Below are positions 9,401 to 50,589 of a stretch of 64,000 nucleotides of DNA, one piece after another. Origin of the DNA: a virus. Lineage: Duplodnaviria; Caudoviricetes. The stretch lies in the IMG/VR virus record IMGVR_UViG_3300014204_000189, positions 409 through 64,408 of that record, one strand, 5' to 3'. The notes beneath the pieces are model-generated. The model did no database searches. It had not been told where the DNA came from and saw only the letters and a list, made by a program, of their open reading frames with translations. Every line of letters begins with the position of its first letter. Position 1 is the stretch's first letter. A program made the translations under genes and the position numbers.

Positions 9401-9506
9401 GATGGTGTTCCAGGTGATGGAGTTCCGCGTGAACGGCGAGAACTGGGGCAAGGGCGAGGGCCACGGGGAACCTGCACCGACAAGCGACGGGAGAAACAAG
9501 CCATGA
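6387..9506 (+). CDS. Tape measure protein
   Basis: ~1040 aa, Ala/Gln/Met-rich and helical, after chaperones; TTG start 6 nt after GGGAGG (ORF open from 6327). Confidence 0.7.
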   Translation: MDETYMPQLGDNDWDYQPFFGTEGMPQMGGGLGFAVSTGLGIGGQMAMAPLGMMPMGMNDTNLYDRIQRRELTQMHDSLMREAAKQGKESTIEVIKGGFALHGTPYGADQQKAAEASADQLSAFAPMLAMMAPKLMDELGGDRGRVEAMQEQMFRGAQFRIDPVSGQMGMSEDSMKGVFKQVYQNMYAGDKYLEREGIKAGEMGDLFTSLQRRGMMAPPGQVADLAEEESPDGLIQGMRTNNIDLPDSVKNYAKGDKLNEAQRKELKESVRKLSPDQTQALGQDLDVAPALERFDAKKIEVTLKKYQGAVSAMRDIFGGAGRPNAPMSELIEGLQQLTGGAMQQMDPAAVENMVRTTQATAMRTGIGIEGAMMIQQKYMAQAEAMGINPIMATQATQHEMSMRGTYGAMGYGAAPAWGAWDDRKFASESGKAMLRSTQAMSTQQMATAVRMQETYNMGDEFFKQDAAGKKLKAYTEAIKTGQTSFVDPTTGKQQSVLMSNADFMGLMQQGSAAPINQGQITRYMSERDANQEVIARKPGLSQINRRLQGEELLQRGSRATSLVLGEQFYGLTEGKTDAERERLGLGSRRAMMDQGAAASRAALDAYMSMDEADKGDNDKRRAAMGKALRVQLESTEAGRALLAKQGDAKGQDAWLRGQSEQIFQEANEDPVLKRAGGMINVSREHSAKALDRDVRDRAADAAMANVRKSFGGLGRGGLVQKAMQALQDVDPSDPDSVRRAVAQTLGGENSERIASVLKDDLVQMKQYSTRAKDLEDMAKAAEGTDPAKAKSLRAEAAAMRQGIDDARAKVQKNLQSTEAVKADDAKRKDTIEKIQKGDLKGLNKGLQAEIHQVAVDREFKTDEEAAKWVLSHVLPNEKGELKPLEAPAPKAGSDEAKAQRKSDEAILQRAAQRIGEGRPHMEGGREMNAEDVRKGVESGEFGGPTEDEGTIHRIFDTHTAHLSKEEMAAAKRLSSPVTVDRESTKKEREDSGPADGSAKGTGGGRMVFQVMEFRVNGENWGKGEGHGEPAPTSDGRNKP

Positions 9507-10006
9507 GCACCACACTGTTCACCATGGAGGGCGCGGGACAGTTCCAGAACCGCGGCCGCGCTGTGGCAGTCAACAAGTGGAACCCGTTCATCAAGATCAA
9601 CCTGCAGGAGTGGGATTGGTTCGAGTCACTGTCGGCAATCATCACCCGCATCAGTACCACGGAGCAGTGCAACTATCAGTTCCTGCACACTCTTGGTGAT
9701 CACATCTACCTGTACGTCTTTGGAGATCGCATCGGGCAGCTGGGCATCGGTGGGCTGACGTTCAACGACAACTGCCAGGACCCGCTACAAGAAGACGGGA
9801 TCTCCAAGGTCATCCGTTGGTTCCGTCAGCGACGCGTAGCCGTACGCAAGGAGCCGATCATCTTCCAGTTCCTGCCCGACGAAGGCCTGGGACCGTTGAA
9901 AGGTTACCTGGTTGACATGCGCGGCGACACAGTGGACGCTTGTCAGCGATTGTCGCAGTTCTACTTGACCATCGCGCTTATTCCTCAGCGACTGGAGTCC
10001 CAGTAG
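9503..10006 (+). CDS. Tail/baseplate protein (tube-initiator-like)
   Basis: ATGA overlap after tape measure; YQFLHTLGDHIYLYVFGDRIGQLGIGG motif. Confidence 0.5.
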   Translation: MSTTLFTMEGAGQFQNRGRAVAVNKWNPFIKINLQEWDWFESLSAIITRISTTEQCNYQFLHTLGDHIYLYVFGDRIGQLGIGGLTFNDNCQDPLQEDGISKVIRWFRQRRVAVRKEPIIFQFLPDEGLGPLKGYLVDMRGDTVDACQRLSQFYLTIALIPQRLESQ

Positions 10007-11514
10007 TGATCAATCACGCTCGCACATTGCTGATGAACATCGACGGCGACGGCTACGGCGGTTTTCCGGGCGACGAGTACATTCCGCCCGCCTACCACAG
10101 CCTCAACCTGCCTGGCTACGTGGACCAGATCCGCAAGTACCTGTTTGGACCCAGCCCCGACCGGATGCTGCTCAACTATCGCACGCGGCAGTACATGTCG
10201 CTGTTGCACTCCACGGAGTTGCTGGAGTTTCTCACGGACCTCGATCCTCGAATCACGTACCGGGTCAACCAACAGGATCTCTTCGCCGACCAGTTGTACG
10301 CTCCTGTCTATTTGCCGATCAATTGCGGGAACCAGCAACTGTTTTTCGTGGGCGAAGTGGGACCGCCGGATGTCTTTGGCAAGATGTACCACCAGTGGCG
10401 AGTCCGTGTGCTGACGGAGGAGCAAGACATCATTGAGCCTCCGTTACCCACGGGCGGGTCTTGGACACTGTCGATTGTTGGACGAACCACTGCACCGATT
10501 CTGTTACGTGCAACCGCGGACGACGTGCGCAGTGCCATCGTCGCGATAATGTCCCCTCTTTTGGACGAGAATCCGGGTTGGTTGACCGTCACCAACAGTC
10601 CCGTGTGGCCGAATCATGGTGTTAAATTTACTCTCGGCTTCGCCCCTGAGATGCAGCGGTGGCTCGGTGACTACACGCAAGGTACCGTAAGCAATCAGCT
10701 GGTCGGCGACAGTCACCCGACGGTCACCTTCCGCAACACAGACCCCGGCGAGGCGTTTTTTTACGGCGACCGCCAGGTAATCGCTTTCAACAACAACGGG
10801 GCAACCTCCGGCGAGTTCACGCTGGAAGGCGCCCCCGGTTTTCCGTTGTCCTGGGACGCAAGCTGGGAAGAGCTGTGCGAAGCTGCGGAGGTCGCAACGG
10901 GTGCGGCGTGGGGCATACAAACAAACGAGACTCTGGCTGAGGGCTATGTTGAAATCGCGAGGCTAGCCATTGGGGGGCCGAACATCGACGTCGCTATCGC
11001 CACGGACACCACCAATGGCCCGACGACTGTCGTGACGAGCCGCGACGGTGAAGACTCTCGTCCCGGTTCCTGGTGCTACGACGAAGTGGTAATCGACTGG
11101 GACGCGGCCCTGGAATCCACGACAAAGCACGGAACGGTGGAGATCGTTCGACAGACGCCTCCAGCCAGCGAGACCATCGTCGACTATCAGATCACCGATG
11201 GAGTGAGCAGCCTGTTTCCGTTTCCTGGTTCAGGGCTGCAAGGACGGTTCGAGGCAGGGCTGGGAGCCGAGTGGCGTGTCGAAGCACTCGCGCGACCCAG
11301 CCTGCAGCTGGGACAAATCGAGGCGGCGTTGCGACAGATCGGAGAGCCGCTCATGTTGTCGCTGTTCGGCATCGGGCAGCAACGTGGCAGCCTGGAGCCG
11401 TTCAAGACCTTCTACAACCTCTGGAACGGCCATCACTTGTTACCGTACTCGCTCGGCGGTCTATTGCTGGGCGTGATTTACGTGAGCGATTTGGTACGAC
11501 GAGGAGCGTTGTAA
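10006..11514 (+). CDS. Baseplate-region structural protein with inserted GGxW/FTL adhesin-like domains
   Basis: GTG start overlapping previous stop; internal PTGGSWTLSIVGRTTAPI and SGEFTL...LSWDASWEEL segments. Confidence 0.5.
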   Translation: MINHARTLLMNIDGDGYGGFPGDEYIPPAYHSLNLPGYVDQIRKYLFGPSPDRMLLNYRTRQYMSLLHSTELLEFLTDLDPRITYRVNQQDLFADQLYAPVYLPINCGNQQLFFVGEVGPPDVFGKMYHQWRVRVLTEEQDIIEPPLPTGGSWTLSIVGRTTAPILLRATADDVRSAIVAIMSPLLDENPGWLTVTNSPVWPNHGVKFTLGFAPEMQRWLGDYTQGTVSNQLVGDSHPTVTFRNTDPGEAFFYGDRQVIAFNNNGATSGEFTLEGAPGFPLSWDASWEELCEAAEVATGAAWGIQTNETLAEGYVEIARLAIGGPNIDVAIATDTTNGPTTVVTSRDGEDSRPGSWCYDEVVIDWDAALESTTKHGTVEIVRQTPPASETIVDYQITDGVSSLFPFPGSGLQGRFEAGLGAEWRVEALARPSLQLGQIEAALRQIGEPLMLSLFGIGQQRGSLEPFKTFYNLWNGHHLLPYSLGGLLLGVIYVSDLVRRGAL

Positions 11515-13217
11515 TGGTGGACATTGAACGTGTTGCACGGACAGAGATGGAGGTGCTGCTCTTCATTGACGGCGAAGAGTACCACGTCGCGCAGTTCAGC
11601 ATGGACTTCTCGATCAACACCATCCCCACAGCCACGGCACTGCTTGCCGTGGGTGTCGACGTGCACACGGGCAAGCCCGCCACGATCCATCGCACGGCGT
11701 CCAAGCTCAAATCGATGCTCGTTGCCGAGGTGTTCTTCGAGCCCAAGAACGATTCCGAGTGGCGGCCGCAGGGGCCCTTGTGGCCCGCGGGGCGTACCCG
11801 GATCTTCAAAGGCTACGTGACCGGGTTCGGCACGGCCAAAATTCGCGGGTCGATGCGGGCCGTGGTCAACTTGACCCATTGGCTGGTGGATCTCAACTTC
11901 TCTTCGTGCCTCAGCAACCAGTCTCATCCCTGCAATCCCAACCAGTTCAGCTGGCGAGCTTGTTTTCCCGGCCAGGGTGCGATGACGGGCGCTGACGAGA
12001 TGCCGCACTACAACGTGGAGTCGATGTCCCGAGACATCTTTCTCGCGGAGCAAGTGTCCACAGACCTCTGGGCATGTATCCACAAGTTCTTCAACGCGCT
12101 GGCAGAACAAGATTTGTTCAAGTTCACTCCAGCCAATTGGGCACTGCAGGGCATAGGCAAGAGCAATCCTCGCGCAAAACGGGCGCTGGCCTTGATTGAG
12201 ACCGAGGCGGGAGTCACGGCGCAGTTCAAGCCTTCACGATGGTGGAAGCCACTCTCGTTGAAGATGGGCGATGGCGCGACGAAGCAAATCGCAGAAGCAA
12301 TCGCATACTGGATCCAGCGGGAAAGCCTGCAGTCCTACGCGGCGACGACGTTCTGGGACAAGCTGATCACCGAAATCTCGCCGGTCTTTATGTTCTCCGT
12401 GATCCCGCTGGTGGAGACGGCGATCATTGCTCCGCTCATTCCCGGGCTGCAGCAGCCGTACATCAAGAAGCTGCGGGCAGACGAGACCTCCTACCTGCAG
12501 ATCGACTCGCACATCCCCAAACCGTTGCGCGGCGTGTCTGTCACAGCAGGTTATGAGTCCTACACCAACTGCACGGATCGCGAAGGGGGCGACGTCCATT
12601 CCGAACTCGGGGCCGGTGGCTGCTTCAGCCCTGCGGGTGCTGAAGACGACGGGCTGGTGCTCACCAAGCCCGCGCCTGCCTGGTTGACCAACGTCCCGGT
12701 GCTCACCCACGATCCCGCGAACACGGTGATCAGCGCGGACCGTTCAGAACGCACGGCAGCCACGGTCATGCCCAAGGCCAAGTGCGTCAAGGGCGACCAG
12801 GAGAACAAGACTCCCTGCGAAACGGCCAAATCGTGCAAGGACATCCTCACGCGGCTGGCCGAGGCGATCTATGTCCAAGAGACGTTGCGAGGCCGCATCG
12901 GTGTTGTCCATGGCAAGCTGCGGTTTGACATCGCGCCGGGGTCCACCGTCTACGTGGAGAACACGCGGGAGATCCACCTGGGTGCGGCCGACTTGCTCGG
13001 GAGCGAGGACTTCGTGGCGGACGTGGTCCGGGTCTCTGTCATGCTGGACTCCGAGGGAGCCCAGGCGGGCACCAGCTTCCAGCTTGCCCATGTGCGATCC
13101 AACACCGAGAATAAAGACGTCCGCTTCTCCATCAAGTCGCACCCCCTTTACGATCAGCAGTACACAGGTGCGCCGCTGATCGAGAAGTACTTGTTCGAGG
13201 AGGTTGCCGATGCCTAA
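11514..13217 (+). CDS. Baseplate hub protein (gp27/gp44-like)
   Basis: TAATG overlap; beta-rich N-terminus (LLFIDGEEYHVAQFSMDFSINTIPTATA); C-terminal GKLRFDIAPGSTVYVE typical of hub proteins. Confidence 0.55.
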   Translation: MVDIERVARTEMEVLLFIDGEEYHVAQFSMDFSINTIPTATALLAVGVDVHTGKPATIHRTASKLKSMLVAEVFFEPKNDSEWRPQGPLWPAGRTRIFKGYVTGFGTAKIRGSMRAVVNLTHWLVDLNFSSCLSNQSHPCNPNQFSWRACFPGQGAMTGADEMPHYNVESMSRDIFLAEQVSTDLWACIHKFFNALAEQDLFKFTPANWALQGIGKSNPRAKRALALIETEAGVTAQFKPSRWWKPLSLKMGDGATKQIAEAIAYWIQRESLQSYAATTFWDKLITEISPVFMFSVIPLVETAIIAPLIPGLQQPYIKKLRADETSYLQIDSHIPKPLRGVSVTAGYESYTNCTDREGGDVHSELGAGGCFSPAGAEDDGLVLTKPAPAWLTNVPVLTHDPANTVISADRSERTAATVMPKAKCVKGDQENKTPCETAKSCKDILTRLAEAIYVQETLRGRIGVVHGKLRFDIAPGSTVYVENTREIHLGAADLLGSEDFVADVVRVSVMLDSEGAQAGTSFQLAHVRSNTENKDVRFSIKSHPLYDQQYTGAPLIEKYLFEEVADA

Positions 13218-13944
13218 GTCGTACCTAGAGCCCAATTACAGCGAAAGTTTCCAGCAGTGGCAAGCGAAGCCCACGCCGATGGCTACGGATCAGCTGTTGC
13301 AGCAAGTCGAGCCGGTGATCCAGAAGAGCCTGGTGGCCACGGCGGGACCGAGCTACAGTCCGCTGCTTCGCAGCCACGCAAGACGCATTGCCTTGCAGGC
13401 GTTTCAAAGTTACGACCCCTCGCAGGCCAAGCTGGGTACGCACCTCACCAATCATTTGCAAGGTTTGCGTCGCGTCTACCGACAACAGTCGCAGGTGATG
13501 GCTACACCTGAGCGTGTAAGCATGGACGCGGCCTACGTGAACGAGCAGTCGCAACGGCTGGAGGACGAGTTGGGCAGACCGCCCAGCGCGCAGGAGCTGG
13601 CAAATACGACGGGCCTTTCTCCTCGCAGACTGGCCCATTTGTCAAAGTTTCGCCAGCCGATGGCCGAAGGGACCTTCTCCGACACAGCCATGGGCGAGGA
13701 CCAGAGCAACTCTCCTGGTGTCATGGCCGACTCGCCCTACCACTTGGCGCAGGAGGTCATCTACCAGGATCTGGAGCCCAAGAACCAGCTCATCATGGAG
13801 CACACGCTAGGCCTCCATGGTCGCCCGGTGCTGTCCAACCAGCAACTGGCCGCACGCTTGCGGCTGTCTCCCGGAGCCATCAGCCAGCGCAAGCTAAGCA
13901 TCCAGCAGAAGCTGGACGAAGCCATGGACATGGGGATTTTGTAA
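13210..13944 (+). CDS. Sigma-70-family (FliA/SigB-like) RNA polymerase sigma factor
   Basis: Region 2-like AFQSYDPSQAKLGTHLTNHLQGLRR; region 3 LEDELGRPPSAQELANTTGLS; region 4 HTH LSNQQLAARLRLSPGAISQRK. Confidence 0.8.
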   Translation: MPKSYLEPNYSESFQQWQAKPTPMATDQLLQQVEPVIQKSLVATAGPSYSPLLRSHARRIALQAFQSYDPSQAKLGTHLTNHLQGLRRVYRQQSQVMATPERVSMDAAYVNEQSQRLEDELGRPPSAQELANTTGLSPRRLAHLSKFRQPMAEGTFSDTAMGEDQSNSPGVMADSPYHLAQEVIYQDLEPKNQLIMEHTLGLHGRPVLSNQQLAARLRLSPGAISQRKLSIQQKLDEAMDMGIL

Positions 13945-33948: not shown

Positions 33949-35001
33949 ATGGCGAAGACGACTTGGTTCAACGACAACGAGAATCGTGCGTTCCCTTTTG
34001 TTGCAGGTACTGCGGGCCAAGTCTACACGACAGGGTCTCGACGGATCTACCACATCCCTAATGCCACCTTTGTGGATATGGGCTTCGTCATGGGCGTCAA
34101 CTCGGGGTTCGTCGAAGGTGAACACATCGTCTATCTCTCAAGCGTGACGTACAGCCGCAGTTCACACACATCTGTGTTCACTTTCAAGTGCACGGCGCCT
34201 CGGTTGATTACCAGGTACTTGCAACTCTATGTTTCCGGTAGTTTGGGAGAACTCCCGAAATACTCGACTTGGGACTTTGCACACGCGGGACCAAAAATCC
34301 CGCACTACCTTGAAGACGACTGTCTCGACGATGAAATGTGGTCAGGCTATGCCGTGTTCGGAGATTTGACTCCGCTCAAGACACTCATCGGCTACTACAA
34401 CTCACTCTCTTATTCGCCGACGGTACGGACGATCGTCGAGCCCGCACTGATCCACAACCTGGCCAACAGCTATGCGCGCACGCTCAACTTGGCCTGCGCC
34501 GACCGGACACGAGCTACGCGGCCGGACGGCTGTCGCGACCTGTGCTGGCCGGTGCCTCCGCAACCGATCTGGATTCGCGACACGTGCCTCACCGGTCACG
34601 TGCGGTGGCAAGAGGGTAAGAACTGCCAGATTCGGCAGGACGACGCGCAGAACGCAATCATCATCGGAGCAATGAAAGGCGGCGGAGAACCTCCTTACGG
34701 CGGTGAGACGTGTGAAGAGATCCCGCTGTACGATGGCGAAGAACCGCCGCCGGGTCGCTCGCGACTGGACGGCGCGCTGCGATGTTCCGAGGTGATGCGC
34801 ACGATCAATGGCGTAGGTGGTCGCGTTGTGATGTTGCAGGCAGGTGCCGGTGTGAACATTTCGCCCGATCCCGACAATTCGGAGATCGTCATCGACGTGA
34901 ACATGCACTCCATGGCCGCCTGTGGCGAGACCGAACCCGACGAGTCGGAAAACTGTTCGTGGTCGGAGTCCTACGACCCCTGCGCTTGCGGACCGGAATA
35001 A
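33949..35001 (+). CDS. Cys-rich tail-associated protein (paralog family)
   Basis: [12 protein letters not shown]; MRTINGVGG. Confidence 0.6.
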
Positions 35002-36011
35002 TGACAGACGATCCCTTGGATTTTGCGCCAGTCTTTCAGCCGACGCGCTGCGAAGTGCGTCCGGTACGTCCGATCCCCGAAATCCCGCGGATCAGTGACT
35101 GCTATATTCCTGATGTTCCGACTCCCATTCAGGACTGTCAAAATCCGAGCGTTCCGTACATTCCTCCACCGGACACGCCGCCGCCTGGACCGCCTGGACC
35201 GCAAGGACCGCAAGGCCCGCCAGGTATCGGCACTCCGGGCCCGGGAGGTCCGGCTGGCCCTGCCGGACCTCCCGGGCCTCCAGGTGGAGTAGGGCCGACA
35301 GGGCCCGTAGGCCCGGCAGGACCGGCCGGGCCTGTCGGCCCGGCAGGACCACCAGGACCGCCAGGACCGCCTACGCCAGGACCGGCTGGCCCGCAGGGAC
35401 CTCCGGGAACGCCAGGAGGCCCAGGCCCCCAAGGCCCTGTAGGGCCGACAGGCCCCACCGGTCCTGCCGGTCCGACAGGCCCAACGGGTCCACAAGGTCC
35501 AGCCAATGGTCCCTCAGGTCCCGCAGGTCCGCAGGGGCCTGAGGGACCGGAAGGTCCACGGGGACCCGGCGGTCCGCAAGGTCCGAAGGGCGACAGCGGC
35601 ATGGGCAGTGGTAGCGGAAAGTCCGCCATCGTGGCCTACACGCCGGAAAATGGCGAAGAGCAGTACGTTGGGATGATGTGCGTGGAAATGCCCGAGACAC
35701 GGTTCGAGGACACGGTGCACGCGTTCATCTGTCACCGCGGTACTGTGGCACTGGATGCGTGCTTCGTGGCCATTTGCGAGCCGGACTCGTTCGAGGTCGT
35801 GGGCCGCAACACGTCGCACCCGATTCCGCTGGGCGTATCGCTGCGAGGGACCGACGTGCAATTGGAACTGGCGTACCGTGCCGAGACAGTGGTGCACGTG
35901 ACCGTGCGTGTGAGCGGCATCCGTAAGGGATCTGCTGGTCGGTTCCGCCAGTTCACCAAGGAGCAGATGGAACGCAACGAGGCGTTCTGGAGACAGGCGC
36001 GTGAAGACTGA
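35001..36011 (+). CDS. Collagen-like protein
   Basis: Gly-Pro-X run ([13 protein letters not shown]) followed by KSAIV...[11 protein letters not shown]-domain. Confidence 0.9.
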
Positions 36012-37014
36012 GAAGCGGTTCTACCTGGCATTCAGAGTGCCCGTGGCACCCGGCGACATGACCATGGTCACCGCTCTCGTTCGCGACCTCAAGCTCACCT
36101 ACGGTGACCGCTACGCCATCGACGTGCAACAGAAGTTTCCGGCGGTCTGGCGGAACAACCCGCATCTGACACCACTCAACCGCCGCGATCCTCAAGTACG
36201 CACGATCTACCTCGACTACCGCAGCTCGCTCAAGCTGCCGCAAGAGGGAAAGCTGGTGCACTATGTCTCCGCGTTCCATCGCATCTTCGAGGCGGAGACC
36301 AAGATCCATGTCCCGTTGCTGTTCCCCAAGCCGGACTTGCACCTGAGCGAGGAGGAGAAGAGCACGCCGCTGATCTCTGGTCGCTACTGGATCGTGGTTC
36401 CCGGCGGCAAGTTGGACATGACCAACAAGTGGTGGCCGACGGAGTACTGGGAGGAAGTGATCCAGAAGCTACGGCCATGGGGTCTGCGATTCGTACAGGA
36501 AGGGGCCGCCAAGAAGCTTCACGAGCATGCTCCCGTACACAACGTGCTGAACATGGTGGGGCTCACAGGGCAGCGCGACCTGATGCGCAACGTCTACCAC
36601 GCAGAGGGTGTGATCTGTGGCGTCAGCTTCCCGATGCACCTGGCAGGAGCCTTTGACCGTCCTTGCGTCGTGATCGCGGGCGGTCGAGAAGAGCCCTGGT
36701 GGGAAGCATACTGCAACGACTTTCGGGCTTTCGGCCCGCAGTGTGCCCCGGTTAAGATGCCGCATCAGTTCTTGCACACGCTCGGGCAGCTGCCCTGCTG
36801 CGAACACAAAGGGTGCTGGCGACGTCGCGTAGTTCCCCTGGGCGACGACCGGCCCAAGTACGATGAGGACCTCTGCTACCGTCCGTTGCTTGAATTCACA
36901 CCACCCCGGCCGACGTGCATGGAGATGATCAAGCCAGGACACGTCATGAACGCCGTGATGCGGTACTATGAGGAAAAGTTCCTGCCGCCTCCCCTAGCCC
37001 ACGCACAACCATGA
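36001..37014 (+). CDS. Glycosyltransferase family 9 (heptosyltransferase-like)
   Basis: [15 protein letters not shown]; [12 protein letters not shown]; [12 protein letters not shown]...[28 protein letters not shown]. Confidence 0.85.
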
Positions 37015-38048
37015 AGCCCATTGGATCCGCCGACTCTCCTTACGACCTGCCGCCCACGGGCAAGTTCCCAGCGATCTGCCCACGTTGCGGTACCAGCCTG
37101 GCCCAGTTCATCGCGGGCGAGCCCTTGCCGCCGTCTTTGCCTGCGTCAACACTGCAGACGTTACCGCATCCGCCGGAGCCCGGCGACCTGTACGTACCCC
37201 CGGAGCCTCGGCTAGTGAATCCGACGGAGCTGATGCGAATAGGTGCGGTCACAGCTCCGCCTGCACCTGTGGCGCATCCAACCGCGAGCACGTTGTCGGT
37301 GCTGGACGATCCCAAGATCGGTGGCAAGGTGACGATCTGTGTGCTGTTGTTCGGGGCACACCACAATCTGCACCGGCGATGCTTGAACTCGATCATGACC
37401 ACGGTGCCGCCTTCGCGGATGGACCTGCGCGTGGCCACAAACCAGGTAGCCCCAGAAACTGTCACGTATCTGCAGACACTGCCCATCACCAAGGTGTACG
37501 CAGACACGCGGGCACGCCGCAAGTACCCTGCGATGCGGGAGATGTTCTGGGACCCGGTGTTGCCTATCAACACGCAGTGGTTGATATGGTTCGACGATGA
37601 CACATGGGTGCGGCCCGAGTGCAGTCGCTGGCTCTCCCTGCTCGGTGACGCCATCGTGAGCGACCCGGACCCCTTGCTGGGTATGCTGGGCATGCGACGG
37701 CAGCACCCTCTGATTCATGCGAGTCCTCGTCGCGACCCGCGTCAGTGGTTTCGGTCCGCGACCTGGTGGCGCAACCGCTCGATGCGCGACGCAAAGGGCA
37801 ATCCGATACCCAACGGCTCGCGAATTCATTTCTGCCCCGGCGGGTTCTTTGCCTTGCGCGTGGACGCGATGAAAGCCTGCGACATCCCCGACACGCGGCT
37901 CTGTCATAACGGCGGCGACATCGTGATCGGGGAGCAGCTGTGGCAGGGCGGGTTCACGTTGCGCAGCTTCAACGAGGAGAAGAGCGTGGTGGCCCAGAAC
38001 GACTCACCTCGCCGCGGTTTCCGCGAACGGTTCCCCTTCTATGTCTGA
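37011..38048 (+). CDS. Glycosyltransferase, GT-A fold (GT2-like)
   Basis: VTICVLLFG; WLIWFDDDTWV (DXD); FCPGGFFAL; GGDIVIGEQL. Confidence 0.75.
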   Translation: MKPIGSADSPYDLPPTGKFPAICPRCGTSLAQFIAGEPLPPSLPASTLQTLPHPPEPGDLYVPPEPRLVNPTELMRIGAVTAPPAPVAHPTASTLSVLDDPKIGGKVTICVLLFGAHHNLHRRCLNSIMTTVPPSRMDLRVATNQVAPETVTYLQTLPITKVYADTRARRKYPAMREMFWDPVLPINTQWLIWFDDDTWVRPECSRWLSLLGDAIVSDPDPLLGMLGMRRQHPLIHASPRRDPRQWFRSATWWRNRSMRDAKGNPIPNGSRIHFCPGGFFALRVDAMKACDIPDTRLCHNGGDIVIGEQLWQGGFTLRSFNEEKSVVAQNDSPRRGFRERFPFYV

Positions 38049-38434: not shown

Positions 38435-38881
38435 ATGTCCAGTCGGGGAATCACGCTGCTGCTGCAGCCCCAGGAACGCGTCTACGTCCCCAATCGCGGC
38501 GAGGGTTTCCGGCTCCGCGTCACAGCCACAGACGCTGTGGACATGCCCGCGGAGATCTTCCTCCATCAGACGCGACTGGTCGATCCAGTGGAAGCAGTGA
38601 GCGGCGATGAGTTCATGTGCATCTGCTCGCCCTTCGACCTCACCATCTACCCGGCCCAGGAGCCCGACCTGCTCCAATTCCCGCAGTTCTTTCGCAAGAG
38701 CGTGCTGGACGTCATCCTGCCCTCGCAGGCGGTGGCCGAGGAGAGCTGGCTGGCGATCTACGGCGAGGTCAATGGGCTGATCGAAGCGCTTAACAAGCTG
38801 GAGTATCTGTTGCCCGGTGAGTCTGTACGCTGTGGCGAGCCGTTGGCTGTTGACGATTCCGAGTCTGTCACTGAGGACTGA
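38435..38881 (+). CDS. Hypothetical protein
   Basis: AAGGAGG RBS, 148 aa. Confidence 0.75.
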   Translation: MSSRGITLLLQPQERVYVPNRGEGFRLRVTATDAVDMPAEIFLHQTRLVDPVEAVSGDEFMCICSPFDLTIYPAQEPDLLQFPQFFRKSVLDVILPSQAVAEESWLAIYGEVNGLIEALNKLEYLLPGESVRCGEPLAVDDSESVTED

Positions 38882-38883
38882 GC

Positions 38884-39198
38884 ATGCCGCTGCCCAAAAC
38901 ACCCAACGTCGACTTGACGGACGACAACTTGGTCCGCATTATGCGCGATCCGAACTTCACCATCGCCTTTCCGTTCCTGGCCACGGCGATGGCAAGGGCC
39001 CAGGGCACCACGAAGAAGTGCGGCGGGTGCGGACGGAAGAAAAGGGCCAACCGCCACATCGATTTCAACCTCATCCGGCGACAAATTGTGGAGCTGCCGG
39101 TGGCCGAAAAGGGTCGCATGAAGGCCCTGCTGAACACGAATCAGGTGATTATTCACTACCTGAAGACCAACGGGCAGAAGCACAAAATTCGCTTCTGA
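38884..39198 (+). CDS. Small basic hypothetical protein (CGGCGRKK)
   Basis: 104-aa ORF ending the structural operon. Confidence 0.7.
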   Translation: MPLPKTPNVDLTDDNLVRIMRDPNFTIAFPFLATAMARAQGTTKKCGGCGRKKRANRHIDFNLIRRQIVELPVAEKGRMKALLNTNQVIIHYLKTNGQKHKIRF

Positions 39199-39240
39199 TT
39201 TTGGGCTAAATTCGGGGTCAAAACGGGGCATAATACCTTG

Positions 39241-39885
39241 GTCCCAGAGCTTATGTTCTGCGGGCCACTTCTAGGGGTGCTGGCAAAGGCTCTTCTCGCA
39301 CCTCGCGCTGTCTACCGCGGCCTGCCAAGGCCAATGACGGCGCTTCTCGGCATCGGACAAGTCCGATGACCAAATATCCGGGGACCTCTGTGACAAGAGG
39401 CGGCCTGCTCAACGCAGGACGAACGGTTGCACACCGCCCCAATCGAGCTGTGACTCAGCTCGTTCGGCCATTGTTTACGGGTCGGAACCCGCGAACAACT
39501 GGCAAGCCACGGACCGCAAGGACCCTGGCCCATCGAACGACAGAGTACGAACCTCTTCGCGGGGGTCTCGATACAAACGTGCCATTCTGTGTGGTAGATC
39601 CGTCGGAAGCCCTCCATGTCCGCAAGGCTGGAGTATTGGCAACATGAACTTCCGACGTTGTAAGAGCCAATCTACTGCACACACGTGATCAAAATGGGCC
39701 TCGGGAGGCCTCCCCGCGTTTATCTGGGGAGGACGTGGCGCCTGCGGAACCTTCGGACCGCTCCGACAAGAGGGGCGGTTGGAGGGGATGCTGCATGGAA
39801 CACCCGCTCATGCCGGACAACCGGCTATGCGAGGAGCCAGGTAAGTGTGCTCACCGGGCCGCGTAAGGGCCCGGGCTTTGTTTTT
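39241..39885 (+). ncRNA. Candidate large structured noncoding RNA (~640 nt)
   Basis: No credible ORF; CATAAT at 39229-39234; many nested helices, tetraloop-like loops and a possible pseudoknot; terminator-like hairpin plus T-run at 39852-39883. Strand inferred from promoter/terminator orientation. Confidence 0.65.
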
Positions 39886-39913
39886 CTGTTGTCCCCCTAC
39901 TACAAGGAGCCAA

Positions 39914-40194
39914 TCATGGCTAAGAAGCAAGCTACCATCGTTGACGACATCAATGAAACCTGCTGTGCCGGGTTCGCCAAGGGCCGCGAGACGGCCGACG
40001 CGTACCCGATGCTGCCGTCATCGCTGTTCATCGGAGCAGCGGTGGTGGGCTACGTGACCGAGTCCGTGTGCCAGGTGGCCAACTGCGTGGCCGCGTTGTT
40101 CGAGAGCGAGGAGGAGCCGGTGCCCGTTGTGGTCGCTGCCGGTCCGATTCGCCGCGGCCGCGGCCCCGCCAAGAAGCGGACCAGCAAGGAATAA
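39914..40194 (+). CDS. Hypothetical protein
   Basis: AAGGAG RBS before ATG 39914; the longer ORF call from 39685 is probably spurious. Confidence 0.7.
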
Positions 40195-40429
40195 GTCGGG
40201 GGACTTAGGCGGTAGAGCCCGCCGAGGTTCCCCACCAGGCCCTCGGCGGGCCACCCGCTTTCCCCTGCGGTCTTCGGACCGATGAAAACAACCCCCATGG
40301 GTTGACGTTTGTTCGCACCGCTCCTCCCCCGCCGGGCCAAGGAGCTGGTGCAGCAGACGTCGCCTGTGGGGGCTTGTTACACTGACTACTCTTCCTCATA
40401 GCTATGGACCTTTTTCTTTAGGTATCAAG

Positions 40430-41005
40430 ATGCGAAGACGCCGCAAGGGGGGCAAAGACCCCGAACCACGGAAGCCTGCAAAGAAGTCGATCGAGCACCC
40501 GATGATTCTGGCCAGCGGTCCTTGTGGCATCGATCCGCCCGCGCACGCCACGCCCAGGTATCGGCACAAGGATCTCCTCCCCTACCCGTTGATGCGAGCC
40601 AGTGTGAACACAGAGGACGAGTCCACCACGGGCTGCCCGTGGGTCGACGAGAAGTACGGGCTGGAGTACATCCGCTACTGGGAGAACGCCAAAGTCCCGC
40701 CGACGTGGATGGACCCCGAGCGGTTCGTGCGGATGTGCCAGGCCGACCCAGCGATCAAAGCGATCCTGGCTCGGTGCATCAAACGGAACACGCAGCTGCC
40801 CGGCCGTAGAGAACTGCCCGCCGAGCTGGACCGGATCATGGAGGAGGTCTACTTGCCCCATGTGTTGCGGCTGTTCGAGCGGCACAAGTGGCTGCTGGCC
40901 CAGTGGCTGCTGGCCAATCATGCGGACAAGGTGCACCACCGGGCCGAGCTGGAGAAGGAGCGCAAGTACCGAAGAACCCTTGGTACGAGCGAGCCGGACG
41001 AGTAG
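40430..41005 (+). CDS. Hypothetical protein
   Basis: 191-aa ORF. Confidence 0.7.
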   Translation: MRRRRKGGKDPEPRKPAKKSIEHPMILASGPCGIDPPAHATPRYRHKDLLPYPLMRASVNTEDESTTGCPWVDEKYGLEYIRYWENAKVPPTWMDPERFVRMCQADPAIKAILARCIKRNTQLPGRRELPAELDRIMEEVYLPHVLRLFERHKWLLAQWLLANHADKVHHRAELEKERKYRRTLGTSEPDE

Positions 41006-47719: not shown

Positions 47720-47965
47720 ATGCCGAAATATCGGATCGAGGCCCGTGAACGGTTCACCGTGATCACGGTCTACAACGAAGTCGAAGCCGAGGACGTCGAG
47801 CACGCGATCTCCAAGTGCAAGCACGGCACCGCGGCCTACGACAGCAGCCAGCCGGATGACGACGGAGATGACGAGTACCTGGAAACCCTATCCGTAGAAA
47901 AGATCAACGACGACGGAAGGTCCGTGTCACAACAGGACACAGGACCTGATGCTAAGCCGGGGTAA
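47720..47965 (+). CDS. Hypothetical protein
   Basis: GGAG RBS; MPKYRIEARERFTVITVYNEVEAED. Confidence 0.65.
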   Translation: MPKYRIEARERFTVITVYNEVEAEDVEHAISKCKHGTAAYDSSQPDDDGDDEYLETLSVEKINDDGRSVSQQDTGPDAKPG

Positions 47966-48668
47966 CACCAAGCTTGGCCGCGAGATCTGGGCGTTCAACT
48001 TGCCGCGACGCAAAACCTGTCCCGTGACCTCTGCACTGTGTCGTGAACTGTGCTACGCAGACCGAGGCCACTTCATCTTGGACAGCGTCCAAGTCGCCCA
48101 CGAAGCCAACTGGAGCGAAGCCAAGCGCTCCGACTTCGTGGCACGCGTCAACGCCCAGATCCTTTTGGAGTACATCCACACCGTACGGTTGCACGCCTCG
48201 GGCGATTTCTACAGCGTGGCCTACTTGAACAAGTGGATCGCTATCGCACGCAAGAACCGCCACGTGCGGTTCTTCGTGTACGCCCGCTGCTGGACTCGCA
48301 AGGACTACCTTGCGGCTCTTCGCATTCTGTCTCGCCTGCCGAACGTGCAGGTGTGGCTGAGCACCGACCGAACGATGGACCGACCGCCGAGAATCAAGGG
48401 AATGCGCATCGCCTGGATGGCGGAGAACGACACCGACGTGCCGCTCTACCCCGTGGACCTGGTCTTCCGCAATCGGCCGCGAACACCGATGAAGCGGATG
48501 GGCCCGCAGCGCGCTCTCGTTTGTCCTTACGAACAACTCATTTCCCAGCGGCGTTTTCGCATCACTTGTTCGCGTTGCGGAATCTGCTACAACCCCCCAA
48601 GGAAGCGTACCCATGGCACGCCAACTCGATCCCCGTGTCCGTCCCGCCCTCGCCACGTTGCTCGCTGA
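47949..48668 (+). CDS. Phage gp88-like (radical-SAM-related Fe-S) protein
   Basis: GNTKLG...FNLP...TCP...CRELCYA; VRLHASGDFYS...W..IARK. Confidence 0.8.
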   Translation: MLSRGNTKLGREIWAFNLPRRKTCPVTSALCRELCYADRGHFILDSVQVAHEANWSEAKRSDFVARVNAQILLEYIHTVRLHASGDFYSVAYLNKWIAIARKNRHVRFFVYARCWTRKDYLAALRILSRLPNVQVWLSTDRTMDRPPRIKGMRIAWMAENDTDVPLYPVDLVFRNRPRTPMKRMGPQRALVCPYEQLISQRRFRITCSRCGICYNPPRKRTHGTPTRSPCPSRPRHVAR

Positions 48669-49057: not shown

Positions 49058-49399
49058 ATGGCAAAGAAGAAACCCGTTCTGGACACCCTCAACACGTGGA
49101 AGGTGTGTGCTCTGGGTCAGCGCGGCGGGTTCGCCCACCGCTACATCGCCAGCCGCATCTTCGAGCTGGTCCCCGAGAAGCTGGAGAAGTGGCAGATCGC
49201 GGCGATCAGCAATGCGCTGCACCGCAACGAGATTCGTGTCACCGACTGGCGGATGGGCCGCACCAGCCTGGCCACGACCTACGCCGAGAAAGTCTCGACG
49301 CCGGTCAAGGGCGTGAAGGCGGAGAAAGCCATGGAGGGACTCCGGCTCTACGTCCCGGCCAAGCCCAAAAAGGCCAAGCTGCGTCGCAAGACGGGCTAG
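49058..49399 (+). CDS. Basic hypothetical protein
   Basis: 113-aa ORF convergent with the next gene. Confidence 0.7.
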   Translation: MAKKKPVLDTLNTWKVCALGQRGGFAHRYIASRIFELVPEKLEKWQIAAISNALHRNEIRVTDWRMGRTSLATTYAEKVSTPVKGVKAEKAMEGLRLYVPAKPKKAKLRRKTG

Positions 49400-50589
49400 G
49401 CCACCGCGGGCTCGGGAAGCTTCTGGATGAATCGGTTGAGCATGGCCAGGTCGGTCAGCTCCTTGGTGGTGAACTGCTCGTGACTCGCGCGCTTCACGAC
49501 CGGGTGCTGACCGGCCTCGGCCATCAACTGCTCAAAGGAGCGGGCCGCACCGCGGTCCAACGTCCCGGCCACTTCGGCCATCTTGTCGCCATCGACACCG
49601 ATGCCGTTGCTGACCTCGTCCGCGATGGCATCACCCAGCAGCGCCCGCACCTCTTCCAGTGCCAGCTTGGTGAGCTGATCCTTGGAGAAGACGGCGCCCG
49701 TGATCAGCTCACAAGCGTCCTTCACGAACTCGCCCGCCAGGTAGTACGGGGCGGCGAACACGATGTCCTCCGGCCGGGCCAGTCCCTCGGCGTATTTCGT
49801 GGTCAGCCCGGCCATGTGATCGAACAAGTCGATCGTCTTGCACAGGTTGGCCGTGGCCGCCGGGTCCATGGCCAGTGACGGCTGGCTGGCAACGGTGGCG
49901 GCCAGCTTGCGCATCCCGTCGGCCGTCTCCTGGCGAATCTCCGCCCGCACCATGTTCACCCGGTCGTACATCGCCTGGGCACACTCGCGGGGGTCGTACA
50001 CGCCGTGACCCGCTTGCTTCTCCAGCAGCTCCCGGTGCTCCTCGACGTTCGCCCCGAACTCGGCAGCCTTCTCCAGGATCTTGCTGGCGATGGTCTGGCG
50101 GTCGTCGAAGTCGTACGTGTCGCGGTTGGCGTCGAACCACTCCGCGGCGACTTTCACCTCGCCGGGGTTGGTCAGCTGGTAGTGCCGCTCTTTACGGCCG
50201 TCCGTGGTCGCCCATACAATGGCGAACGAATCGTCCGGAAGCTGACTCTCCAGGTTTGCGTGCAGGGAGGCATGCTTTGCTTTCAGTGCTTCCATGTCGC
50301 CCTCCGCGCCCCAGTAGGTGGCAGCTTTGGCGAATCGCCGCTCGATCGGATGACGGAACTTGGCTGCGAGCTGGGACTGCTTGTTGAGGTAGTACACCCA
50401 GGAGAGCACCGTGGCGGCCTTCGTGTGCACGGGAAAGCTTCGCGTGCGGACGTCGGCATACGCTGTGACGGGAAGCCCCTCCGGGTTGCACGTCTCGGGC
50501 ATCGAAGCTTGCTTGACGTACTCCGGGAGCGGATAGAGCCGCGAGTAACGATGAAGCTCACGATAGTTTCTATCCTTGGTCTGATCCAT
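49396..50589 (-). CDS. K-x-A-motif-rich protein, candidate head/scaffold-type substrate
   Basis: GGAGG RBS 7 nt before ATG at 50589; 13 of 23 Lys are in K-x-A. Confidence 0.8.
   Translation of the reverse strand: MDQTKDRNYRELHRYSRLYPLPEYVKQASMPETCNPEGLPVTAYADVRTRSFPVHTKAATVLSWVYYLNKQSQLAAKFRHPIERRFAKAATYWGAEGDMEALKAKHASLHANLESQLPDDSFAIVWATTDGRKERHYQLTNPGEVKVAAEWFDANRDTYDFDDRQTIASKILEKAAEFGANVEEHRELLEKQAGHGVYDPRECAQAMYDRVNMVRAEIRQETADGMRKLAATVASQPSLAMDPAATANLCKTIDLFDHMAGLTTKYAEGLARPEDIVFAAPYYLAGEFVKDACELITGAVFSKDQLTKLALEEVRALLGDAIADEVSNGIGVDGDKMAEVAGTLDRGAARSFEQLMAEAGQHPVVKRASHEQFTTKELTDLAMLNRFIQKLPEPAVA

What the first reader, a model, noticed from the sequence alone, without database searches (positions are those of the whole stretch)
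39229..39885. Candidate novel ~640-nt highly structured phage ncRNA with recurring GACAA-loop hairpins
Seen: after the last structural-operon gene there is a CATAAT -10 box (39229), ~640 nt without a credible ORF, then a GC hairpin plus T-run (CCGGGCC 39852-58 / GGCCCGG 39866-72). Nearly the whole interval pairs. Local and mid-range helices: GGGGTGC 39274/GCACCTC 39298; GCGCTGTC 39305/GACGGCGC 39336; CATCGGA-caag-TCCGATG 39351-68; CGAGCTG 39442/CAGCTCG 39454; a 39469-96 hairpin; GTGTGGTAGAT 39587/ATCTACTGCAC 39668; CGTCGGAAG 39599/CTTCCGACG 39647. A long-range helix GGGCCA 39262/TGGCCC 39524 closes a ~260-nt domain, and ATTGGC 39633/GCCAAT 39664 could form a pseudoknot. Several helices use G-U pairs, and GCAA/UUCG-type loops occur, which favours RNA-level function. 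GACAA occurs four times at hairpin apices (39356, 39391, 39763, 39814). Established: large phage-associated ncRNAs of this size exist (GOLLD, ROOL); I see no landmark matching them. Inference: a new large ncRNA class, a protein-sponge RNA with repeated loops, or a very large regulatory leader for the 39914 gene.
Basis: partly seen in the sequence, partly recalled or inferred. Interest (0 to 1): 0.88.

Follow-up and report, generated by a model that had tools for sequence, protein, structure and literature searches.

The report
Orphan structured RNA behind conserved promoter
A 640-base non-coding, strongly folded stretch in an uncultivated jumbo phage lies between a promoter conserved across the phage family and a terminator, but its body has no relatives, so it looks like a lineage-specific leader or cargo RNA rather than a new widespread RNA class.

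Summary
Window 39199-39915 has no gene-like ORF, folds far better than shuffles (z -5.9) and ends in a clean intrinsic terminator.

New here: the 'CATAAT box' belongs to a bipartite promoter-like motif, P1 (CTAAAT-N13-GNGN-CATAAT, 39206-39234). P1 sits right after the same 104-aa gene in six related phage lineages. It occurs once in this 64-kb window and once in a 107-kb relative. In Planctomycetota genomes P1-like sites precede a family of divergent ECF-like sigma factor genes. That points to the host phylum and to an alternative-sigma promoter.

What follows P1 differs in every lineage:
- a 45-290 nt hairpin RNA;
- small orphan genes;
- in one relative a tRNA-Met;
- here a ~645-nt RNA plus an orphan 92-aa gene.

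The RNA body has no Rfam match and no detectable homolog, so covariation cannot be tested. The GACAA-loop motif is not significant.

Best reading (about 0.5): a promoter-to-terminator non-coding unit in a hyperplastic slot, acting mainly in cis as a terminated leader or attenuator. A trans-acting large ncRNA is not excluded (about 0.2). Expression data could not be obtained.

The parts
38884..39198 (+). 104-aa gene, last gene of the tail/glycosyltransferase operon. It is the conserved upstream anchor of the slot.
   Evidence: GC3 0.81. Homologs lie directly upstream of P1 in L005, L008, L009, L031 and L032. The exact protein is also on a 228,799-bp contig.
39206..39234 (+). P1, a conserved bipartite promoter-like motif: CTAAAT (-35-like), 17-nt spacer with G at -14 and -16, CATAAT (-10).
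   Evidence: Same motif and spacing at the syntenic place in L005 6788, L008 4720, L009 7079 and 7336, L031rc 11649 and L032 5189. Unique in the window at up to 2 mismatches and unique in the 107-kb relative. L031 and L032 were found through the motif alone.
39238..39267 (+). 5' stem-loop that starts at the predicted transcription start (about 39241).
   Evidence: All 7 phage P1 sites have a hairpin opening 0-3 nt from the TTG/GTG that follows the -10. The sequences differ; mean z is -1.7.
39241..39885 (+). Predicted non-coding RNA of about 645 nt, with some 20 predicted helices of which about 13 are local hairpins.
   Evidence: MFE -293.7, z -5.9. Helix list with pair probabilities. No gene-like ORF. 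No Rfam hit. The transcript ends are inferred from sequence, not observed.
39854..39885 (+). Intrinsic terminator: CCGGGCC / GGCCCGG stem, GCGTAAG loop, TTTGTTTTT tail.
   Evidence: Terminator scan. Pair probability 0.96.
39916..40194 (+). Orphan 92-aa gene with an AAGGAG RBS and no room for its own promoter. It is cargo of the slot.
   Evidence: GC3 0.83. Its only database match is itself, on 2 contigs. No Pfam, PHROG or Atlas hit.
40195..40398 (+). Second structured non-coding stretch with a long hairpin (about 40287-40376) just before the P2 box.
   Evidence: z -7.5 for 40195-40429. A long hairpin in the same position before the TAGCTAT box occurs in L005, L008 and L009.
40399..40405 (+). 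TAGCTAT box (P2), the conserved downstream boundary of the slot.
   Evidence: Found once on the + strand of the 64-kb window and once each in L005, L008 and L009, always 6-24 nt before the start codon of the 191-aa gene homolog. Also present further upstream of the 94-aa gene in L031 and L032.
40430..41005 (+). 191-aa gene, the conserved downstream anchor.
   Evidence: 39% identical homolog P0003. Syntenic tblastx matches in L005, L008 and L009.

Best explanation
The interval is a discrete non-coding transcription unit that sits in a hyperplastic 'cargo slot' of a jumbo-phage family.

How it is built. A conserved alternative-sigma-type promoter (P1, 39206-39234) lies directly after the last gene of the tail operon. 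Transcription would start near 39241. The RNA begins with a 5' stem-loop, runs about 645 nt as a chain of stable hairpins, and mostly stops at the intrinsic terminator at 39854-39885.

How it most likely works. The orphan 92-aa gene at 39916 has no room for its own promoter, so it can only be expressed by read-through of that terminator. The RNA therefore most likely acts in cis in three ways:
- as a long terminated leader, or attenuator, that gates the downstream cargo gene;
- as a shared 3' end for the upstream operon;
- as a barrier in front of the next operon, which has its own conserved TAGCTAT box.

The RNA body is specific to this lineage. It is not a conserved ornate RNA.

Shown: the interval is non-coding, has excess structure, has a conserved promoter motif and a terminator, and the slot content varies between relatives. 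Inferred: that P1 fires, where the transcript ends lie, and the attenuator role.
For: Non-coding.

Excess + strand structure confined to the gap.

P1 conservation: the motif is conserved in position, spacing and sequence in six lineages whose neighbouring 148-aa protein is only 33-57% identical (tblastx segments). These include two 44-45% GC phages recovered from 2.9 million viral contigs by the motif alone.

P1 is locus-specific: one copy in 64 kb and one in 107 kb.

P1-like sites in Planctomycetota:
- 28 of the 80 listed hits in a 185,579-species scan are Planctomycetota.
- There is extra conservation at positions the search left free.
- Sites precede one protein family, 39-43% identical to its first member. 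It matches the sigma70-ECF superfamily model below cut-off, at E 9e-7 to 5e-4.
- ECF sigma genes are commonly autoregulated from a promoter just upstream (established knowledge).

The same design in compact form in relatives:
- L005: P1, a hairpin with T-run within about 65 nt, an RBS, then a gene.
- L031: P1 and two hairpins with a T-run in about 85 nt.
- L009: P1, a roughly 185-nt giant hairpin and a T-run.

Other points:
- No terminator-like site lies between the 104-aa stop codon and 39854.
- Only about 30 nt separate the T-run from the ATG at 39916, which has an AAGGAG RBS.
- All five gap RNAs and a short leader at this locus fold better on the gene strand.
Against: - There is no expression data.
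- The consensus sigma-70 scan does not call P1, and its -35 half matches TTGACA poorly. That P1 fires rests on conservation and on the host sigma-gene association.
- Nothing explains why 645 nt are needed when relatives manage with 45-290 nt. That excess is what a trans-acting RNA or decayed cargo would also produce.
- The attenuator role is inferred from layout only. I found no antiterminator structure or factor.
- Structure excess measured against real genomic tiles is modest (z -2.8, one other tile equal).
- No homolog of the host sigma family was found in the phage records, which are 31% and 51% complete.
Confidence: 0.5

Rival explanations
1. It is an autonomous, trans-acting large ncRNA carried as RNA cargo, for example a protein sponge, a decoy or an anti-defence RNA. 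It would be made from P1 and released at the terminator, and its function would depend on its fold.
For: - It is a discrete promoter-to-terminator unit of 645 nt with z -5.9.
- Predicted long-range helices close multi-stem domains: 39255-39263/39742-39750 and 39381-39392/39558-39569, with pair probability 0.6-0.7.
- The same slot in relative L032 carries an RNA gene, tRNA-Met at 5406-5478.
- In L008, L009 and L031 the slot, or its P1b-to-P2 part in L009, holds only non-coding RNA.
- A 19-nt hairpin motif, GGACCNCTNNGACAAGAGG, occurs twice in the RNA.
- GOLLD and ROOL are of similar size and are often near tRNAs and in prophages (PMC5737381).
Against: - No homolog of the body was found anywhere, so no covariation is available.
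- The slot RNAs of relatives are unrelated in sequence and length. That argues against a conserved fold-dependent function.
- GACAA enrichment is not significant.
- The three viral-contig hits to the 19-mer are chance matches.
- Long-range helices predicted for a single 645-nt sequence are unreliable.
Confidence: 0.2
2. It is evolutionary debris in an insertion hot spot: remains of decayed cargo genes, or accreted hairpin modules. It would be transcribed only passively and have no function of its own.
For: - The P1-P2 interval differs in every lineage, from 85 nt to 2.7 kb.
- L009 has two P1 copies flanking a 66-aa ORF. That is the footprint expected from recombination between repeated regulatory cassettes, as described for PeSLs (PMC2839356).
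- The neighbouring 92-aa gene is an orphan.
- Each frame has somewhat fewer stop codons than composition predicts: I counted 3-6 per frame against about 7.7 expected (translations).
Against: - There is no residual protein similarity to the cargo genes of relatives, even at E 5, and no Pfam or PHROG hits.
- Decayed coding sequence should fold like the coding tiles. This is the most structured of the 97 + strand tiles, and local z-scores switch exactly at the gene borders.
- All non-coding gaps at this locus in four lineages are strongly structured, z -5 to -12. That looks selected.
Confidence: 0.17
3. It is a DNA-level element, such as a transcription-primed replication origin, a packaging site or a recombination site. 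The hairpins would then act as DNA, or the transcript would act as a primer.
For: - The - strand also folds well above shuffles (z -6).
- A unique conserved promoter followed by a structured region recalls R-loop-primed origins such as ColE1 RNA II and T4 oriF/ori34 (established knowledge).
Against: - There is no GC-skew turning point at 39 kb over the whole window.
- There are no iterons, direct repeats or tandem repeats, and no AT-rich unwinding stretch.
- Local structure favours the + strand.
- The T-run terminator works only on the + strand.
Confidence: 0.08
4. It hides a protein-coding gene, or it is a self-splicing intron that interrupts a gene.
For: ORFs of 93 aa (+ strand, 39366-39647) and 101 aa (- strand, 39312-39617) exist. 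The frame of the 39916 gene is open from 39685, and a gene caller chose GTG 39847, giving a 115-aa form.
Against: - None of the ORFs has the strong GC3/GC2 signature of this genome's genes.
- There are no family hits.
- No group I or II intron match appears even at E 10.
- The 104-aa protein is full length compared with its homologs of 97-115 aa, so no exon is split.
- The 115-aa form would have to contain the terminator hairpin.
Confidence: 0.03

Closest known systems
PeSL cassettes (promoter-early stem-loop) of T4-type phages (PMC2839356, PMC4122927)
   Same: - A composite of a promoter plus an adjacent stem-loop terminator or attenuator, then an SD and a start codon.
- It sits in a hyperplastic region next to orphan genes.
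- Duplicated copies flank a small ORF (L009 P1a-ORF66-P1b), as expected for cassette-mediated shuffling.
- L005 has the compact, roughly 100-bp form.
   Different: - PeSLs are many-copy sigma-70-consensus early promoters spread through the hyperplastic regions. P1 occurs once per 64-107 kb and resembles an ECF-type promoter, not the sigma-70 consensus.
- In this window the promoter and its terminator are about 620 nt apart and enclose a large structured RNA.
Lambda PR'-tR' unit, the constitutive terminated '6S' leader read through under Q antitermination (established knowledge)
   Same: A single special promoter is followed by a non-coding leader and a strong intrinsic terminator placed in front of the genes it controls. 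The short terminated RNA is the default product.
   Different: - The lambda leader is about 194 nt; this one is about 645 nt.
- No Q-like gene or Q-binding element was identified.
- The downstream operon here has its own conserved box (P2).
3'UTR-derived sRNAs with their own promoter that share the terminator of the upstream mRNA, such as DapZ and MicL (established knowledge)
   Same: The promoter lies at the end of the upstream gene. There is no terminator between that gene's stop codon and the RNA's terminator, so the two share a 3' end.
   Different: Those sRNAs are 50-300 nt, depend on Hfq and have defined seed regions. Here the RNA is 645 nt and has no supported target: the best antisense match, 16 nt, is within chance.
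GOLLD / ROOL large ornate RNAs (PMC5737381, PMC12286853)
   Same: Similar size (ROOL averages 581 nt), an association with phages, and proximity to tRNA genes in at least one relative's slot (L032).
   Different: - No match to either covariance model.
- GOLLD and ROOL are defined by conserved multistem junctions and pseudoknots across phyla. This RNA has no homolog at all.
Autoregulated ECF sigma factor promoters (established knowledge)
   Same: In Planctomycetota, P1-like sites lie 70-170 nt upstream of, and co-oriented with, a family of ECF-like sigma genes. The motif contains a GCGTC/GCGGC element next to the AT-rich -10.
   Different: In the phage the motif drives a non-coding RNA, not a sigma gene. 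The cognate sigma factor is not identified, and the phage's own sigma-like protein shares only region 4 with the host family.

Membership tests
GOLLD, ROOL, OLE, HEARO, raiA and every other Rfam 15 family | Match to the family's covariance model | tested here: not met
   No hit at gathering score in the whole window. At E up to 10 over 39100-40000 the only hit is a chance Glutamine-II match on the - strand (11 bits against a gathering score of 33).
ROOL/GOLLD-like ornate RNA (as a kind) | Multistem junctions and pseudoknots supported by covariation among homologs | not testable with these tools
   No homolog of the body in phages, viral contigs, metagenome loci or genomes.
PeSL regulatory cassette | Promoter immediately followed by a stem-loop terminator or attenuator, then an SD and a start codon | tested here: inconclusive
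   Met in relatives L005 and L031. In the window a stem-loop follows the promoter, but the terminator is 620 nt away.
PeSL regulatory cassette | Sigma-70-consensus early promoter present in many copies across hyperplastic regions | tested here: not met
   P1 is not called by the sigma-70 consensus scan. There is one copy in 64 kb and one in 107 kb. Only L009 has two.
Q-type antitermination leader (lambda PR'-tR') | Promoter, then a non-coding leader, then an intrinsic terminator upstream of the controlled genes | tested here: met
   P1 at 39206-39234, terminator at 39854-39885, gene at 39916 with no promoter room.
Q-type antitermination leader (lambda PR'-tR') | Q-like antiterminator protein and its binding element in the promoter | not tested
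   No Q-family hit among the proteins scanned with Pfam or PHROGs. Most proteins of this phage match nothing and the record is 31% complete.
3'UTR-derived sRNA with own promoter | Internal promoter at the end of the upstream gene and a terminator shared with that mRNA | tested here: met
   P1 starts 8 nt after the stop codon. The scan of 38500-40700 finds no terminator-like site between 39198 and 39854.
3'UTR-derived sRNA with own promoter | Defined seed pairing with target mRNAs | tested here: inconclusive
   The best antisense match is 16 nt, to gene 33949-34998. 1.4% of shuffles and 4 of 99 tiles reach 16.
ECF-type sigma-dependent promoter | The motif class is found upstream of ECF sigma genes (autoregulation) | tested here: met
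   Five independent host loci have a co-oriented downstream protein that hits TIGR02937 (sigma70-ECF) at E 9e-7 to 5e-4, below the curated cut-off. The loci are L077, L125/126, L127/128, L056 and L084. The proteins are 39-43% identical to L077, the first row of the alignment.
ECF-type sigma-dependent promoter | Transcription from the motif depends on that sigma factor | not testable with these tools
   This needs in vitro transcription or a reporter assay. No homolog of the host sigma family was found in the two incomplete phage records.
Group I / group II intron | Intron core structure, and a host gene split into two exons | tested here: not met
   No Rfam intron hit at E up to 10. The 104-aa protein is full length compared with its homologs. 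The 92-aa gene has no homolog in the relatives.
tRNA / tmRNA | Cloverleaf detected by ARAGORN or the Rfam tRNA model | tested here: not met
   None in the window. A tRNA-Met is present in the same slot of relative L032.

The most novel reading that the evidence does not exclude
The slot behind P1 is a dedicated 'RNA cargo' site of a jumbo-phage family that infects Planctomycetota. It would be switched on through a host ECF-like sigma factor. In this phage it holds a new fold-dependent ncRNA of about 645 nt that acts in trans, for example as a decoy or sponge against a host factor. In a relative the same slot holds a tRNA.
Probability: 0.15. Interest if true: 0.75.

Novelty: new variant of a known kind. 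Interest (0 to 1): 0.45.

Why it matters
If P1 fires as inferred, this is a phage regulatory cassette of the promoter-plus-terminator kind that has grown to enclose one of the longest non-coding leaders seen in a phage. It would be driven by a promoter type that the likely host phylum uses for ECF-like sigma genes.

That would give three things that can be tested:
- a host assignment (Planctomycetota) for an uncultivated family of jumbo phages of roughly 230 kb that has almost no annotated proteins;
- a candidate promoter consensus for a divergent planctomycete sigma family;
- a defined hyperplastic slot in which RNA genes and orphan genes are exchanged.

The RNA itself stays an orphan. Its importance depends on expression data and on closer relatives.

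Tried and rejected
Searches for homologs of the RNA body (all negative):
- blastn against 50,697 phage records.
- blastn against the related loci and the 107-kb relative.
- blastn against the 80 genome loci.
- Earlier findings of this scan, searched by sequence.

Other ideas tested and dropped:
- The internal 19-mer GGACCNCTNNGACAAGAGG as a family signature. It gave 3 viral-contig hits with no further similarity, so these are chance.
- DGR template or another repeat elsewhere in the window: none.
- Tandem repeats of the ToxI type: none.
- Replication origin judged by GC skew: no inflection.
- Pseudogene remnants of the relatives' cargo genes: no tblastx signal at E 5.
- Antisense target at gene 33949: a 16-nt match that is within chance.
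- P1 as the housekeeping promoter of Planctomycetota: with 2 mismatches there is no consistent excess over the reversed control (85 vs 49, 51 vs 56, 64 vs 76).
- The phage sigma-like protein 13204-13941 as a member of the host sigma family: only region 4 aligns (hhalign probability 5.8%).

Searches that led nowhere:
- Close relatives through the 104-aa, 92-aa and 191-aa proteins. They found only self-hits or P0003, whose contig was not in the searchable collections.
- One viral scan was wasted on an 18-nt instead of a 17-nt spacer.
- Literature searches on planctomycete promoters and phages found nothing useful.

Full report
CONTEXT

The window is nearly all of a 64,408-bp IMG/VR virus record that CheckV rates 31% complete. 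The exact 104-aa protein encoded at 38884-39195 is also on a 228,799-bp contig, so this is a fragment of a jumbo phage with about 61% GC. Almost none of its proteins match Pfam or PHROGs. Upstream of the finding lie a collagen-like gene, a GT9 and a second glycosyltransferase-like gene, then 125-, 148- and 104-aa genes, all on the + strand.

THE OBSERVATION

Coordinates run 1-2 nt low from about 39390 onward; the observation check gives the true positions.

The interval 39199-39915 is non-coding by this genome's own standard:
- Flanking genes show GC3 of 0.73-0.83 and GC2 of 0.37-0.51.
- The ten ORFs of 40 aa or more inside the interval show GC3 of 0.49-0.73 and GC2 of 0.50-0.66.
- None of the ten hits Pfam or PHROGs.

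The terminator at 39854-39874 plus its T-run is called by the scan.

Structure is well above chance:
- z is -4.3 for 39229-39885 with 20 shuffles.
- z is -5.9 for 39241-39885 with 150 dinucleotide shuffles, none as low.
- Against real sequence, it is the most stable of 97 tiled 657-nt windows on the + strand after GC correction (z -2.8). One coding tile, at 49276, is almost equal.
- Local 120-nt z-scores turn negative at the gene border, stay negative to about 39900 and are near 0 in the coding flanks. The + strand beats the - strand in 9 of 11 windows.

The whole-region strand difference alone is not unusual.

GACAA (4 copies where about 0.95 is expected) is not significant once the choice of 5-mer is allowed for. 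The four copies sit in loops of 4, 6, 7 and 4 nt in different registers.

WHAT IT IS NOT

- A known RNA family: no Rfam 15 family matches at gathering score or at E up to 10.
- A tRNA or tmRNA: none found.
- A repeat-based element: no repeats elsewhere in the window, so no DGR template, and no tandem repeats.
- A replication origin judged by GC skew: no turning point.
- An intron: the 104-aa protein is full length relative to its homologs, and the 92-aa gene has no homolog.

RELATIVES AND THE KEY RESULT

The 148-aa protein (38435-38878) has 628 relatives in the representative library. Using the closest ones I recovered these syntenic loci:
- L005, from a 107-kb IMG/VR contig.
- L006, L007/L008 and L009, from metagenomes.

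All keep the order GT9, GT-A, 148-aa, 104-aa ... 191-aa, 232-aa. None has any nucleotide similarity to the 645-nt body.

Directly after the 104-aa homolog, however, every one of them has the same bipartite motif, CTAAA[AT]-N13-GNGN-CA[AT]AA[AT]. That reads as a -35-like CTAAAT, a 17-nt spacer with G at -14, and a -10 CATAAT.

- The motif is unique in the window even at 2 mismatches and unique in the 107-kb relative.
- Scanning 2.9 million viral contigs for the motif returned 7 loci. One is the positive control, L005's contig.
- Two of the others, L031 and L032, are new syntenic relatives with only 44-45% GC.

That is a strong phylogenetic footprint. I call the motif P1.

A second conserved box, TAGCTAT (P2), lies 6-24 nt before the start codon of the 191-aa gene homolog in four lineages. 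It occurs once on the + strand of the whole window.

THE P1-P2 INTERVAL IS A VARIABLE SLOT

| Lineage | Content between P1 and P2 |
|---|---|
| Window | about 645-nt RNA with terminator, orphan 92-aa gene, 200-nt structured gap |
| L008 | about 290-nt structured leader (z -5.4) |
| L009 | P1a, 66-aa ORF, P1b, about 185-nt giant hairpin with T-run (z -11.8) |
| L031 | about 85 nt: two hairpins and a T-run |
| L005 | a hairpin with T-run within about 65 nt of P1, RBS, about 2 kb of genes, then a 558-nt structured gap (z -11.6) |
| L032 | about 180-nt leader, tRNA-Met(CAT) at 5406-5478, 158-aa gene |

All seven phage P1 sites are followed by a hairpin that opens within 0-3 nt of the TTG/GTG after the -10. 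The hairpin sequences differ. All six non-coding pieces fold better on the gene strand.

WHAT P1 IS

The same pattern was scanned over one genome for each of 185,579 species and gave 91 stretches.
- Of the 80 listed, 28 are Planctomycetota.
- These show further conservation at positions the search left free: CGCGTCATAA, TTGAGGG, and a TTAGC about 10 nt later.
- Three planctomycete genomes each carry 3 exact copies, against 0 for the reversed control.
- With 2 mismatches there is no consistent excess, so P1 is not the housekeeping promoter.

The co-oriented genes 70-170 nt downstream belong, at five independent loci, to one protein family. Its members are 39-43% identical to L077, the first row of the alignment. 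They match the sigma70-ECF superfamily model over nearly its full length, but below the curated cut-off (E 9e-7 to 5e-4). Some copies lie in multi-copy repeats of 1-2 kb. Another site precedes a GP88-family gene that is homologous to window gene 47949.

ECF sigma genes are typically autoregulated from a promoter just upstream (established knowledge). P1 is therefore most simply the promoter class of this sigma family.
- The likely host is Planctomycetota.
- The phage's own sigma-like protein (13204-13941) shares only region 4 with the host family.
- No homolog of the family is present in the two incomplete phage records. The sigma factor that reads P1 is therefore probably the host's, or is encoded in the missing part of the phage genome.

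HOW IT MOST LIKELY WORKS

Shown:
- The interval is non-coding and has excess + strand structure.
- A conserved promoter-like motif stands at its 5' edge and a terminator at its 3' edge.
- No terminator lies between the upstream stop codon and 39854.
- No room exists for a promoter before the 39916 gene.
- The slot content varies between lineages.

Inferred:
- P1 fires near 39241.
- Most transcripts, and read-through from the tail operon, end at 39885.
- A regulated or leaky fraction reads through to express the 92-aa gene.

This makes the RNA a long terminated leader or attenuator that also serves as a shared 3' end and an insulator before P2. The compact P1-hairpin-T-run-RBS form in L005 and the P1-hairpin-terminator form in L031 look like the basic cassette. 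That cassette resembles the PeSL cassettes of T4-type phages (PMC2839356, PMC4122927) and the lambda PR'-tR' leader. The two P1 copies that flank a small ORF in L009 are what cassette-mediated shuffling would leave behind. I put this reading at about 0.5.

WHAT REMAINS OPEN

Nothing explains why this phage needs 645 nt. A trans-acting, fold-dependent RNA (about 0.2) fits three facts: the unit is discrete, helices are predicted to close multi-stem domains, and a tRNA occupies the same slot in L032. It has no comparative support. Debris in a hot spot (about 0.17) fits the turnover, but not the consistent, border-sharp structure excess in four lineages. DNA-level roles and coding are unlikely.

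LIMITS

- The ECF assignment of the host family rests on sub-threshold hits, although they are consistent and nearly full length.

VERDICT

The feature is real and non-coding, and it is more interesting for its conserved promoter and its slot than for the claimed RNA class. 'A new large ncRNA class with GACAA loops' is not shown. 'A very large structured leader or cargo RNA behind a conserved alternative-sigma promoter' is the best-supported description.

Noticed in passing
window 39206-39234; L034-L113 (genome loci); L125-L130: The P1 motif is strongly over-represented in Planctomycetota: 28 of the 80 listed hits in a scan of 185,579 species. There it precedes a family of divergent ECF-like sigma genes, some of them in multi-copy repeats of 1-2 kb. 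This suggests both the host phylum of this phage family and a promoter consensus for that sigma family.
   Followed up: partly
window 40399-40405; L005 9508; L008 5028; L009 7584; L031rc 11758; L032 6046: A TAGCTAT box occurs once on the + strand of the 64-kb window. In four lineages it lies 6-24 nt before the start codon of the 191-aa gene homolog; in L008 it is only 6 nt before the ATG, which hints at a leaderless mRNA. It may be the -10 element of the next operon's promoter.
   Followed up: partly
L032 5406-5478: A tRNA-Met (anticodon CAT) lies about 180 nt downstream of P1, in the same slot of a 45% GC relative (ARAGORN; Rfam 63.5 bits).
   Followed up: yes
window 40195-40429; L005 8963-9520; L009 7355-7600; L008 4745-5040: Every non-coding gap between P1 and the 191-aa gene is extremely structured: z -7.5, -11.6, -11.8 and -5.4. 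In the window, L005, L008 and L009 a long near-perfect hairpin sits just before the TAGCTAT box, although the sequences are unrelated. The L005 gap is 558 nt and more extreme than the finding itself.
   Followed up: partly
window 39587-39603 versus 34040-34056: A 16-nt exact antisense match, 35 nt at 83%, links the 5' arm of the long hairpin to codons of about 31-36 of the tail-fibre-like gene 33949-34998. 1.4% of shuffles and 4 of 99 tiles do as well, so it is not significant on its own.
   Followed up: yes
window 39382-39400 and 39755-39773: Two hairpins inside the RNA share 16 of 19 nt (GGACCNCTNNGACAAGAGG). This may be an internal duplication. It accounts for two of the four GACAA loops.
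   Followed up: partly
window 39847-40194: The public gene call for the 92-aa gene is a 115-aa form that starts at GTG 39847, inside the terminator hairpin. The ATG at 39916, with AAGGAG 6 nt upstream, is the more plausible start.
   Followed up: no
window 38435-38878: The 148-aa protein has no Pfam or PHROG match, yet it has 628 relatives (E up to 0.001) in the 1.84-billion representative library, some as tandem or fused forms. It is a widespread uncharacterised phage protein family.
   Followed up: no
window 36001-38048; L005 3909-5903; L031rc 8872-10800; L032 2445-4379: The GT9 gene and the second glycosyltransferase-like gene are separate but overlapping in the window. In three relatives they are fused into one ORF of 642-664 aa.
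   Followed up: no
window 47949-48665; L093 2050-2970: The window gene belongs to the GP88 family (PF17338, E 5e-32). A homolog in a planctomycete genome sits downstream of a P1-like site.
   Followed up: partly
window 49276-49932: This coding tile has a GC-adjusted + strand folding energy almost as extreme as the finding (residual -39.8 against -40.1 kcal/mol).
   Followed up: no
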